From positions 288,001 through 352,000 of the forward strand of contig CM000436.1 in the NCBI GenBank assembly GCA_000165345.1: 64,000 nt of DNA. The letters are read 5' to 3'. Both the position numbers and the translations under genes were made by a program. Numbering within the stretch: position 1 is the first letter of the stretch; every line of letters begins with the position of its first letter. The notes under the pieces were generated by a model that searched no databases, had not been told where the DNA came from, and saw nothing but the letters and a program-made list of their open reading frames with translations. Shown here piece by piece: positions 20,971 to 22,533 of the stretch.

Positions 20971-22533
20971 ATGAAGAGTTTATTTAGTGCAATTATTTTC
21001 TTTTTGGTATTTGCAATTTCAGCTTTAAATGTAAATTCTCAAGAATTGATTTTAACAACTGAATCAGCAGTTTCAACAGATCAATCCACATTTGGGAATT
21101 CTTCTTATGTAAGCCCACCAATAAATTCAACAAAAGCATCAAGAAATGACACTTCTTCATCAGATTCAAGTGATACAGATGATGAAAAAAACCCACTTAA
21201 GAAGTTCCTAGAAAAGATCAAGAAAAAAAGAAATCTTGGGCTTACAAATGAGGAGATGGACAAGTTCAGCGAAAGAGAAGAGATCGATATTGCACAGAAA
21301 GAGTCATCCGAAGCATCAAAGGACTCTAATGCCACCACAACTACTGTTAAAGGAAAGAAGGGAGAATACAATAATGGTTACAACCATCATCATCATCATC
21401 ATCATCATAATCATCATCATCATGGATATAAGCCACATAAAACTACTACCACTACCACTACTACCACAACAACTACAACAACAACTACTACTACTACTAC
21501 CACTAGTACTACTACTACTACCACTACCACTACCACTACCACTACTACTACCACTACTACTACTACTACTACTACTACTACTACCACAACAACTACAACA
21601 ACAACTACAACTACAACTACTACAACTACTACAACAACAACAACAACAACTACTACTACTACTACTACTACAGAAGCTCCAGGTTCAAGAATCAATTCTT
21701 TAAGGCGTTTAAGAGGTCTTTCTGAAGATAATTCACAAGATGTTGAAGAAGTGAATCCCCAGGAAGAAGCAAGTAGATTAAGTAAATTAACAAATATGAC
21801 GAAAGAAATTAAGTCAAGTTTAGTAGATACATTCAACAATACAATGAGTATTGATATTTTAAATAACACAAAAAGCATTGTAAATCAAACATTAAACTCG
21901 ATTGAACAGATAAAAAATGTTACAACTTCAAATTTACCATTAAACTCAACCATTTTAGACCAAATCAAAGAAACTAGATCTGTTGCAGTTAACCAAACAA
22001 CAACAACTATTGAGAATAATTTAAACAATTTGACAAATGTTGATCTAGATTCAAAAGTTGCTATTTTAATGGCTCCAATCAATGAAACTTTATCTATTCT
22101 TCAAGAAACAACTAATTTAACAGGACTGACCAACTTAACAAATACATTGAAGGGAACAAATTTTACTGGTGTAGTTGAAGATTCTATTTTGAAGAACAAT
22201 TTAACACAACAATTTCCATTTAATGGATCTTTACTATTAAATGGTAAGGTAGCAAACATTACAACATTTGATATTCTTCCAGTTGGTCAGAACAATCTAG
22301 AAATTGATCTTAACAATACTAACTCTGGAAGTTGTCCAAATGGAGTTTGTGAAAGTGATCAAGAAGTTGATGATGAATTTACATTTGATTCTGATGGGCA
22401 CATTATCTACAAACAAGGTGCAGTTGAGAAAAATACTGATAAAGATGGATCAGCCTTTTCAGTTTCTTCATCAATCTATAACTTTGTATTCATATTCTCA
22501 ATAATCATTTCAACAATTTATTTACTACAATAA
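20971..22533 (+). CDS. secreted Thr-rich mucin-like glycoprotein with a poly-His tract and a C-terminal hydrophobic (GPI-signal-like) tail
   Basis: The track ORF starts at GTG 20929; the first ATG is at 20971 (MKSLFSAIIFFLVFAISALNVNSQ, a signal peptide). It has a run of 12 His, then roughly 75 consecutive Thr/Ser encoded by an (ACT/ACC/ACA)n repeat. The C-terminal half has many N-x-T/S sequons, and the C-terminus SSSIYNFVFIFSIIISTIYLLQ is hydrophobic like a GPI attachment signal. Confidence 0.7.
   Translation: MKSLFSAIIFFLVFAISALNVNSQELILTTESAVSTDQSTFGNSSYVSPPINSTKASRNDTSSSDSSDTDDEKNPLKKFLEKIKKKRNLGLTNEEMDKFSEREEIDIAQKESSEASKDSNATTTTVKGKKGEYNNGYNHHHHHHHHNHHHHGYKPHKTTTTTTTTTTTTTTTTTTTTTSTTTTTTTTTTTTTTTTTTTTTTTTTTTTTTTTTTTTTTTTTTTTTTTTTTTTTTTEAPGSRINSLRRLRGLSEDNSQDVEEVNPQEEASRLSKLTNMTKEIKSSLVDTFNNTMSIDILNNTKSIVNQTLNSIEQIKNVTTSNLPLNSTILDQIKETRSVAVNQTTTTIENNLNNLTNVDLDSKVAILMAPINETLSILQETTNLTGLTNLTNTLKGTNFTGVVEDSILKNNLTQQFPFNGSLLLNGKVANITTFDILPVGQNNLEIDLNNTNSGSCPNGVCESDQEVDDEFTFDSDGHIIYKQGAVEKNTDKDGSAFSVSSSIYNFVFIFSIIISTIYLLQ
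21385..21423 (+). repeat. (CAT)n trinucleotide repeat encoding a poly-His tract
   Basis: catcatcatcatcatcatcataatcatcatcatcat lies inside the mucin CDS. Confidence 0.9.
21442..21672 (+). repeat. (ACT/ACC/ACA)n trinucleotide microsatellite encoding poly-Thr
   Basis: About 230 nt of near-pure ACN codon repeats. Both other frames give poly-L/poly-V artefact ORFs (21236-21703 + and 21420-21878 -). Confidence 0.9.

What the first reader, a model, noticed from the sequence alone, without database searches (positions are those of the whole stretch)
20971..22533. GPI-type mucin built on pure trinucleotide microsatellites (His12, Thr/Ser about 75): a likely hypervariable surface antigen
A signal peptide is followed by an acidic/Ser-rich segment, (CAT)n giving His12, then an uninterrupted (ACN)n giving about 75 Thr. 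An N-glycosylation-rich domain (more than 20 NxT/S sequons) and a hydrophobic GPI-signal-like tail follow. This architecture parallels the sporozoite/merozoite mucins of Cryptosporidium that mediate attachment. Length variation of the ACN/CAT repeats by slippage is expected, making this a candidate subtyping locus and immune target. The poly-His run could bind divalent metals.
Basis: partly seen in the sequence, partly recalled or inferred. Interest (0 to 1): 0.6.

Follow-up and report, generated by a model that had tools for sequence, protein, structure and literature searches.

The report
Annotated Cryptosporidium GPI-type mucin gene cgd8_1160
This is cgd8_1160 of Cryptosporidium parvum, an annotated but experimentally unstudied gene for a heavily sugar-coated, probably lipid-anchored membrane protein; its histidine and threonine repeats change length a little between isolates, while the rest of the protein is conserved across the genus.

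Summary
Window 20971-22533 (+) is one intact 520-aa ORF. It has a signal-peptide-like start, an acidic Ser cluster, H8-N-H4, a 77-residue Thr tract with one Ser, 20 NxS/T sequons and a hydrophobic C-terminus.

The window is C. parvum chromosome 8. The gene is cgd8_1160.

The slippage prediction holds. Twelve assemblies show Thr tracts of 58-80 residues and His runs of 9-15, and the indels sit in pure codon runs.

"Hypervariable antigen" does not hold:
- The non-repeat parts are identical among five C. parvum alleles apart from one signal-peptide substitution.
- dN/dS between species is 0.1-0.4.
- The protein was not flagged seroreactive on a published infant-serum array.

New here:
- Syntenic orthologues exist in all 11 species or lineages examined, including gastric C. 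muris and C. serpentis, where the published table lists the gene as absent.
- All share an invariant DLN.T..G.CPNG.C motif, conserved NxT sequons and a GPI-like tail.

Location and function are untested. The case is ordinary and of low novelty.

The parts
20971..22533 (+). Single-exon CDS of cgd8_1160 (520 aa plus stop).
   Evidence: ORF and translation. Identical protein in syntenic loci L002 and L003. Gene identified through its neighbour cgd8_1150 and the annotation text.
20971..21039 (+). Signal-peptide-like N-terminus (aa 1-23), with probable cleavage VNS|QE.
   Evidence: Rule-based check only: K2, hydrophobic core KD 3.35, small -3/-1 residues. An N-terminal hydrophobic core is present in all 11 orthologues, and the VN(S/C)|Q cleavage context in most.
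21100..21186 (+). Conserved N-terminal islands: (F/Y)V.PP motif (aa 44-50) and the acidic Ser cluster DTSSSDSSDTDDE (aa 60-72).
   Evidence: Both are present in all orthologues. In C. muris and C. serpentis the Ser cluster is expanded to 23-30 Ser.
21385..21423 (+). (CAT)8-AAT-(CAT)4, encoding H8-N-H4.
   Evidence: TRF. Invariant in 5 C. parvum alleles. The pure runs in C. hominis vary (H9/H11/H12/H12). C. meleagridis has H15 and L011 has H11. Gastric species have no His run.
21442..21672 (+). Imperfect (ACN)77 array encoding T21-S-T55, the predicted O-GalNAc mucin stalk.
   Evidence: TRF score 250. Codon map, and allele indels located in pure ACA/ACT runs and higher-order units. Lengths of 58-80 in close relatives and 105 in C. 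ubiquitum.
21697..21726 (+). Conserved motif SLRRLRGLSE (aa 243-252). It fits a minimal furin-type RxxR and also an RxLxE pattern, so it is a possible processing site (inference only).
   Evidence: L, R and S are invariant across the 10 aligned sequences. P4 Arg is present in all intestinal species. RxLx(E/Q) is present in 10 of 11 orthologues.
21787..22305 (+). N-glycan-rich domain (aa 273-445) carrying 15 of the 16 sequons that follow the Thr tract. The low-confidence model suggests it is mainly helical.
   Evidence: Sequon excess over shuffles and positional conservation. AF2 single-sequence model has pLDDT 39.5, so only the secondary-structure tendency is usable. Only sub-threshold Pfam hits, to helical-bundle families.
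22306..22416 (+). Genus-invariant C-terminal module DLNNTNSGSCPNGVCESDQEVDDE ... YKQ (aa 446-482), which holds the protein's only two Cys.
   Evidence: Invariant columns D, L, N, T, G, C, P, N, G, C, E, D, E, E, K, Q. BLASTP against C. serpentis gives 2e-9 and against C. muris 7e-5 over this module.
22447..22530 (+). GPI-attachment-signal-like tail: small-residue omega candidates (G493-S-A, S497-V-S, S499-S-S), a short spacer, and a hydrophobic stretch running to the C-terminus.
   Evidence: Rule-based check. All 11 orthologues have an uncharged 20-30-residue C-terminal stretch (one ends in Arg), small-residue triplets and no cytoplasmic tail.

Best explanation
The feature is cgd8_1160 ('Muc21') of Cryptosporidium parvum chromosome 8. 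It is a single-copy, single-exon gene conserved in synteny throughout the genus. It encodes a membrane-bound mucin-like glycoprotein.

Proposed mechanism, all steps inferred:
1. The N-terminal signal peptide takes the protein into the ER.
2. Oligosaccharyltransferase fills many of the 16 conserved, NxT-biased sequons of the C-terminal domain.
3. GPI transamidase removes the hydrophobic tail near G493-S499 and attaches a GPI anchor.
4. In the Golgi, the parasite's polypeptide GalNAc-transferases nearly saturate the 77-residue Thr tract. This turns it into a stiff, protease-resistant rod of roughly 20 nm.

The result would have a conserved, N-glycosylated, Cys-pair-containing module next to the membrane. 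The mucin rod would project the His run and the acidic N-terminal region outward. The most likely site is the surface of invasive or intracellular stages, acting as glycocalyx, lubricant or adhesin.

The repeats are built from trinucleotide arrays. These gain and lose codons by slippage or unequal exchange. That produces modest length alleles, while selection keeps the residues hydroxylated and the non-repeat scaffold constant.
For: Shown:
- Identity and existing annotation.
- Intact ORF and architecture.
- Syntenic orthologues between the permease and the cytidylyltransferase in C. parvum, C. hominis, C. meleagridis, L011, C. ubiquitum, C. canis, C. felis, C. bovis, L017 (GCA_009792415.2; taken to be C. 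ryanae), C. muris and C. serpentis.
- Purifying selection on the non-repeat flanks, dN/dS 0.09-0.44.
- Sequon excess, 15:1 NxT bias and positional conservation, with 4 sequons kept in all 11 orthologues.
- A GPI-signal-like tail with no cytoplasmic extension in every orthologue.
- An invariant DLN.T..G.CPNG.C module.
- Allele indels confined to pure (ACA)n/(ACT)n runs and short higher-order units. The interrupted C. parvum His run is invariant, while the pure C. hominis run varies.

From the literature:
- C. parvum GalNAc-transferases nearly saturate consecutive Thr, and gp15 is GPI-anchored (PMC5549699).
- The transcript is detectable in oocysts at a low signal of 5.49.
Against: - No experiment on this protein was found in the searchable library. 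It was absent from the held supplements of two oocyst/sporozoite glycoproteomic papers.
- SignalP, PredGPI or NetGPI could not be run. The original annotators left 'transmembrane domain or GPI anchor' open.
- Structure prediction failed (pLDDT 39.5), so the fold of the conserved domain is unknown.
- The low oocyst mRNA signal (5.49, against 185 for the neighbouring gene) does not suggest an abundant sporozoite coat protein.
- Several other Cryptosporidium 'mucins' turned out to be secretory-granule cargo sent to the parasitophorous vacuole membrane rather than zoite surface proteins.
Confidence: 0.6

Rival explanations
1. The protein is secretory-organelle cargo from small or dense granules. 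It would be discharged at invasion and end up at the host-parasite interface or parasitophorous vacuole membrane. The C-terminal hydrophobic segment would act as a membrane anchor there, rather than on the zoite surface.
For: The mucin-like Thr/Ser-tract proteins CP2, MVP1 and SG3 were shown to be small-granule proteins that move to the PVM (PMC12782386). The low oocyst transcript signal fits expression mainly in intracellular stages.
Against: [quoted passage not shown] By contrast, cgd8_1160 has a GPI-type tail in all 11 orthologues. No localisation data were found for cgd8_1160.
Confidence: 0.2
2. The protein is an oocyst-stage structural glycoprotein made in macrogamonts. It would be part of the inner oocyst wall or of the mucin tethers that hold sporozoites to the wall. 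The His run would contribute metal- or pH-dependent cross-linking.
For: Mucin-like glycoproteins are proposed to tether sporozoites to the oocyst wall, and MPA lectin enriched six further mucin-like proteins from oocysts (PMC5549699 citing Chatterjee 2010). Oocyst wall proteins are described as Cys- and His-rich.
Against: The protein was not found in the held supplements of the oocyst glycoproteomic study. The His run is absent in gastric species, which also make oocyst walls. A GPI anchor fits a plasma-membrane protein better than a wall matrix protein.
Confidence: 0.1
3. One reading: a hypervariable, immunodominant surface antigen evolving under immune pressure, comparable to gp60.
For: Repeat lengths differ among assemblies: Thr 76-79 in C. 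parvum, 72-80 in C. hominis and 69-79 in C. meleagridis. The architecture resembles gp40/15.
Against: - The non-repeat sequence is nearly invariant within C. parvum, and dN/dS is 0.09-0.44 between species.
- The C-terminal domain diverges no faster than the neighbouring permease in intestinal species (78% against 84% for C. ubiquitum, 62% against 62% for C. felis).
- The protein was flagged grey in the Fig. 1A source data, which I read as non-seroreactive (<10% of children), and likewise in a second listing.
- Repeat number in gp60 did not change antibody recognition.
Confidence: 0.05

Closest known systems
gp60 / gp40-gp15 (cgd6_1080) of C. parvum and C. hominis
   Same: Signal peptide; an N-terminal homopolymeric hydroxy-amino-acid tract encoded by trinucleotide repeats that vary in number; a C-terminal part ending in a GPI signal; and a basic motif between the two halves. 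In gp60 that motif is a furin-like site that is cleaved. Here it is RRLR.
   Different: - gp60 uses poly-Ser rather than poly-Thr and has no His run.
- gp60 has highly divergent allelic families and is absent from gastric species. cgd8_1160 is conserved outside its repeats and has orthologues in gastric species.
- Cleavage of cgd8_1160 is unproven.
- Sequence homology to gp60 was not tested.
gp900 (cgd7_4020)
   Same: A Cryptosporidium mucin with very long poly-Thr domains carrying O-GalNAc. It is conserved in C. muris.
   Different: gp900 is much larger. It is a type-I transmembrane micronemal protein that is cleaved and shed (title and abstract of PMC9111948). It is also seroreactive and associated with protection.
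Gp20 (cgd7_1280)
   Same: A small secreted C. parvum protein whose runs of consecutive Thr were shown by mass spectrometry to be nearly saturated with HexNAc. This is the best direct precedent for the fate of the Thr tract.
   Different: Gp20 is described only as a small, acidic, secreted protein; no GPI tail, His run or N-glycan-rich domain is reported for it. It is reported to be lost in several species.
Small-granule mucin-like proteins CP2, MVP1 and SG3
   Same: Signal peptide plus Thr/Ser tracts. They were historically grouped with the 'mucins'.
   Different: They are reported as small-granule proteins that translocate to the PVM, and CP2 is described as intrinsically disordered with no known functional domains. 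No C-terminal GPI-type signal or conserved Cys-pair module is reported for them there.
GPI-anchored mucins of Trypanosoma cruzi (own knowledge, not tested)
   Same: Thr-rich, O-glycosylated, GPI-anchored coat glycoproteins of a parasite.
   Different: They form a large multigene family with hypervariable regions and accept sialic acid. cgd8_1160 has no paralogue in this window, is conserved, and shows no detectable homology to anything outside the genus.

Membership tests
Cryptosporidium mucin-type glycoproteins (an operational class, 'Muc1-24', not a homologous family) | Listed or annotated as such in the C. parvum genome. | tested here: met
Cryptosporidium mucin-type glycoproteins | N-terminal signal peptide. 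| tested here: inconclusive
   A rule-based check is positive and conserved. No dedicated predictor was available.
Cryptosporidium mucin-type glycoproteins | Long Ser/Thr tract. | tested here: met
   77-residue T/S tract. Tracts of 14-105 residues in orthologues; poly-Ser in gastric species.
Cryptosporidium mucin-type glycoproteins | The tract actually carries O-GalNAc. | not testable with these tools
   Precedent only: Gp20, gp40 and gp900 glycopeptides. cgd8_1160 is not in the held supplements.
GPI-anchored proteins | The C-terminal hydrophobic segment reaches the C-terminus with no charged cytoplasmic tail. | tested here: met
   The last 28 residues are uncharged, with KD 2.6 over the last ~17 residues. 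The same pattern holds in all 11 orthologues.
GPI-anchored proteins | Small omega and omega+2 residues about 17-30 residues from the end, followed by a short polar spacer. | tested here: met
   Candidates G493-S-A, S497-V-S and S499-S-S. Every orthologue has at least one candidate.
GPI-anchored proteins | A positive call by a trained predictor, or biochemical proof (PI-PLC release, ethanolamine-linked peptide). | not testable with these tools
   None available. The genome annotators left TM versus GPI open.
gp60 (gp40/15) family | Sequence homology to gp60. | not tested
Pfam gave no hit above threshold for the whole protein.
gp60 (gp40/15) family | Proteolytic cleavage into a soluble mucin and a GPI-anchored fragment. 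| not testable with these tools
   The only lead is a conserved RxLR / RxLxE motif at aa 243-252.
VNTR / microsatellite typing markers | Repeat number differs among isolates of one species, with conserved flanks. | tested here: met
   C. parvum 76/77/77/77/79, C. hominis 72/72/75/80 and C. meleagridis 69/79 Thr codons. C. hominis His runs are 9/11/12/12. Flanks are near-identical. Caveat: assembly error in a 231-bp repeat cannot be excluded for draft assemblies.
VNTR / microsatellite typing markers | Already used in a published typing scheme. | tested here: not met
   No paper text mentions cgd8_1160 or Chro.80136. The chromosome-8 marker TP14 is elsewhere: its F2 primer has no match in the window at up to 3 mismatches.

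The most novel reading that the evidence does not exclude
cgd8_1160 could be a genus-wide, gp40/15-like two-part precursor. Cleavage at the invariant (R)xLR-(G/K)-L-S-(E/Q) motif just after the Thr tract would release a His-tipped mucin. The N-glycosylated DLN.T..G.CPNG.C module would stay GPI-anchored.

The His run is present only in intestinal species and is replaced by nothing in gastric ones. It would act as a pH- or Zn/Cu-dependent switch for binding to host mucus or to the parasite surface. That would make this protein an older and more conserved counterpart of gp60, and so a less variable vaccine target.
Probability: 0.1. Interest if true: 0.55.

Novelty: already known. Interest (0 to 1): 0.22.

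Why it matters
Cryptosporidium vaccine work concentrates on variable mucins such as gp60, gp900 and Cp23. A conserved, single-copy, probably GPI-anchored mucin present across the genus would be a reasonable candidate for tagging and knockout. However, the gene and its predicted nature have been in the genome annotation since the Iowa II release, so nothing here changes the picture.

Practical points from this work:
1. The locus is length-polymorphic and could serve as an extra VNTR marker, although a 231-bp imperfect array is awkward to size.
2. The published statement that Muc21 is absent from gastric species is probably an artefact of divergence, because a syntenic orthologue keeps the C-terminal module.
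3. The repeats, not the scaffold, are what varies. It should therefore not be treated as a hypervariable antigen.

Tried and rejected
- **Protein databases.** Three word-indexed searches and the exhaustive 1.84-billion-representative phmmer search returned nothing for this protein, not even itself. The exact-sequence look-up also failed, although the gene is called in the assemblies. The family is evidently not held in those libraries. 'No homologue outside Cryptosporidium' is therefore only weakly supported. I obtained orthologues through the neighbouring permease instead.
- **Structure.** The single-sequence model had pLDDT 39.5, so I ran no fold search.
- **Domain searches.** Pfam on the full protein and on all orthologue C-termini, and a profile search of PDB sequences, gave nothing above threshold. 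There were only weak hits to helical-bundle families.
- **Paralogues.** None in the window by tblastn.
- **Literature.** Chatterjee 2010, Walzer 2024 and Guerin 2023 are not held, so stage and compartment data could not be read. Supplements of two glycoproteomic papers do not list the gene.
- **More alleles.** A metagenome scan for further alleles found nothing.
- **Rejected readings.** It is not the TP14 marker. It is not AGP1 or AGP2, which are cgd6_32 and cgd7_4330. The off-frame ORFs through the repeat (21236-21703 +, 21420-21878 -) are by-products of the trinucleotide array, not genes.
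Full report
**What is in the sequence**

Window 20971-22533 (+) is one uninterrupted ORF of 520 codons, starting at the first in-frame ATG. In order, it encodes:
- a signal-peptide-like N-terminus, MKSLFSAIIFFLVFAISALNVNS|QE;
- a unique region with a (F/Y)V.PP motif, the acidic Ser cluster DTSSSDSSDTDDE and a highly charged stretch;
- (CAT)8-AAT-(CAT)4, giving H8-N-H4 (21385-21423);
- a 77-codon (ACN) array giving T21-S-T55 (21442-21672);
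- a 260-residue domain with 16 NxS/T sequons;
- a 28-residue uncharged, mostly hydrophobic tail that ends the protein.

The Thr array is a mixture of ACT, ACA and ACC codons with one AGT, and its longest pure run is 10 codons. The His run is interrupted by Asn. The sequon count is exactly 20. The Thr array is the strongest trinucleotide repeat in the 64-kb window. The sequon density of the C-terminal domain is about twice what its composition predicts: 16 against 7.1 +/- 2.2, P about 2e-4, with 15 of the 16 being NxT.

**Which gene it is**

The downstream convergent gene (23244-24632, -) is identical to the C. parvum amino-acid permease EAK89336.1 / CPATCC_003922. It lies about 297-310 kb along chromosome-scale records of 1.33-1.38 Mb. 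These are chromosome 8, as the cgd8 gene identifiers below show.

The upstream gene is the choline-phosphate cytidylyltransferase, which the literature names cgd8_1150. The target is therefore cgd8_1160. [quoted passage not shown] Xu et al. 2019 list it as mucin-type glycoprotein Muc21 / Chro.80136.

No paper text in the searchable library mentions the gene. It appears to be experimentally uncharacterised.

**Variation**

Through the permease I fetched the syntenic locus from 11 further assemblies of close relatives.

| Species / locus | Thr tract (residues) | His run |
|---|---|---|
| C. parvum (5 alleles, window included) | 76, 77, 77, 77, 79 | H8NH4 in all five |
| C. hominis (4 alleles) | 72, 72, 75, 80 | H9, H11, H12, H12 |
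| C. meleagridis (2 alleles) | 69, 79 | H15, H15 |
| L011 (species not identified) | 58 | H11 |

At the codon level, the differences are gains and losses inside pure (ACA)n or (ACT)n runs, or of short higher-order units such as ACT-ACT-ACC. This is what slippage or unequal exchange predicts. It also fits that the interrupted His run is stable while the pure one varies.

The repeat-length prediction is therefore supported. One caveat is that some draft assemblies may mis-size a 231-bp array.

Outside the repeats the picture is the opposite of hypervariable:
- The C. parvum proteins differ by one signal-peptide residue.
- dN/dS is 0.09-0.44 for the N-terminal part and 0.13-0.27 for the C-terminal part.

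**Deep conservation**

Using permease orthologues, I recovered the syntenic gene in C. ubiquitum, C. canis, C. felis, C. bovis, L017 (GCA_009792415.2; taken to be C. ryanae from the assembly, as the source name was cut off), C. muris and C. serpentis.

All encode a protein with the same plan:
- signal peptide;
- (F/Y)V.PP motif;
- acidic Ser cluster;
- the motif (R)xLR-(G/K)-L-S-(E/Q);
- an N-glycan-rich domain;
- an invariant DLN.T..G.CPNG.C.(S/D)D...E module containing the only conserved Cys pair;
- K-Q;
- a hydrophobic C-terminus.

Four sequons are kept in all 11 sequences, and most are kept in at least 8.

The low-complexity parts are lineage-specific:
- Intestinal species have His-rich segments plus poly-Thr of 14-105 residues.
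- C. bovis and L017 (taken to be C. ryanae) carry an extra N-terminal Thr tract.
- The gastric species have no His run. Instead of poly-Thr they have a 23-30-residue poly-Ser grown out of the acidic Ser cluster.

BLASTP of the C. parvum protein against the gastric orthologues is significant only over the C-terminal module: 2e-9 for C. serpentis and 7e-5 for C. muris. This probably explains why the published table scores Muc21 as absent from C. muris and C. andersoni.

Divergence of the C-terminal domain is similar to that of the neighbouring permease in intestinal species.

**How it most likely works**

The following are inferred from sequence rules and precedent, not shown:
- ER entry through the signal peptide.
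- N-glycosylation of the conserved NxT sites.
- GPI attachment near G493-S499. All orthologues lack any cytoplasmic tail after the hydrophobic segment and have small-residue triplets at the right distance.
- Dense O-GalNAc on the Thr tract. C. parvum transferases nearly saturate consecutive Thr in Gp20, and gp15 provides the precedent for GPI anchoring.

The product would be a membrane-proximal, conserved glycosylated module. It would carry a rigid mucin rod that presents the His run and the acidic N-terminal region.

The motif at aa 243-252 (RRLR|GLSE) fits a minimal furin-type site, and gp40/15 is cut at a furin-like site. It also fits RxLxE. Processing into a shed mucin and an anchored stub is therefore possible, but it is pure inference.

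**Evidence bearing on location and antigenicity**

- The oocyst microarray signal is 5.49. This is low compared with 185 for cgd8_1150 and 3064 for LDH.
- The protein was printed on the Gilchrist et al. 2023 array. Its median signal was 0.22 in the Fig. 1A (IgA) source data, and it was coloured grey. I read grey as non-reactive, that is fewer than 10% of children seropositive, because known reactive antigens are coloured red. A second listing, probably IgG, was also grey.
- That array used unglycosylated in-vitro-translated protein, so glycan-dependent epitopes are not excluded.
- In the same study, gp60 repeat number did not affect antibody recognition.
- Several Cryptosporidium 'mucins' have been relocated experimentally to small granules and the vacuole membrane. 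A zoite-surface location cannot therefore be assumed.

**What could not be done**

- The protein family is missing from the large protein libraries.
- Pfam and PDB profile searches found nothing significant.
- The key expression and spatial-proteomics papers are not held.

**Verdict**

Its nature as a predicted His/Thr-repeat mucin with a TM or GPI tail is already in the public annotation.

Repeat-length polymorphism is confirmed. The 'hypervariable immune target' reading is not.

The added value here is threefold: genus-wide orthology that includes gastric species, definition of the conserved C-terminal module and sequons, and the allele comparison.

Novelty is low. The case is of modest interest as an unstudied conserved GPI-type mucin.

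Noticed in passing
window 36425-38815 (-), repeats at 37070-37666: A second mucin-like gene. It is a 796-aa ORF whose middle holds roughly 20 copies of a TTTTKKP(T/I)(V/G)-type unit encoded by 27-66-bp tandem repeats, preceded by a poly-Ser/Thr stretch. I could not match it to any of the chromosome-8 'Muc' entries visible in the excerpt of the published table.
   Followed up: partly
window 46190-46492, inside the 2728-aa ORF 42306-50492 (+): About 17 copies of an 18-bp unit encoding (Q/H)G(Q)(T/I)QD. This is an in-frame minisatellite in a very large protein and could also be length-polymorphic.
   Followed up: no
L016 9067-10578 (-) and L019 8848-10344 (-): C. muris and C. serpentis carry a divergent syntenic orthologue of cgd8_1160, with poly-Ser, no His run, and the same CPNG(I)C module and tail. 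Table S2 of Xu et al. 2019 lists Muc21 as absent from C. muris and C. andersoni.
   Followed up: yes
L016 10758-12208 and L019 10533-12006: The gastric species have an extra mitochondrial-carrier gene between the mucin gene and the cytidylyltransferase. It is missing at this position in the intestinal species.
   Followed up: no
L001/L002/L012 versus L003/L004/L006 (about 10430-12660 in locus coordinates); window about 17.6-20.2 kb: Gene models for cgd8_1150 disagree between assemblies. Some give one 386-aa cytidylyltransferase spanning about 2.2 kb. Others give a 346-aa protein plus a separate small Pcc1-domain gene. This suggests an intron or fusion annotation problem.
   Followed up: no
window 21697-21726 and the same position in all orthologues: (R)xLR-(G/K)-L-S-(E/Q) is the most conserved island outside the C-terminal module. 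It fits both a minimal furin-type RxxR site and a PEXEL-like RxLxE pattern.
   Followed up: partly
window 28495-28581: A (TA)45 dinucleotide array just beyond the start codon of the WD40 gene (25919-28399, -), that is in its 5' upstream intergenic region.
   Followed up: no
tools: The 520-aa product is recorded as a called gene in the assemblies. Yet neither it nor any orthologue can be found in the protein collections, even by exact look-up or exhaustive phmmer. The absence of hits there therefore carries little information for this family.
   Followed up: yes
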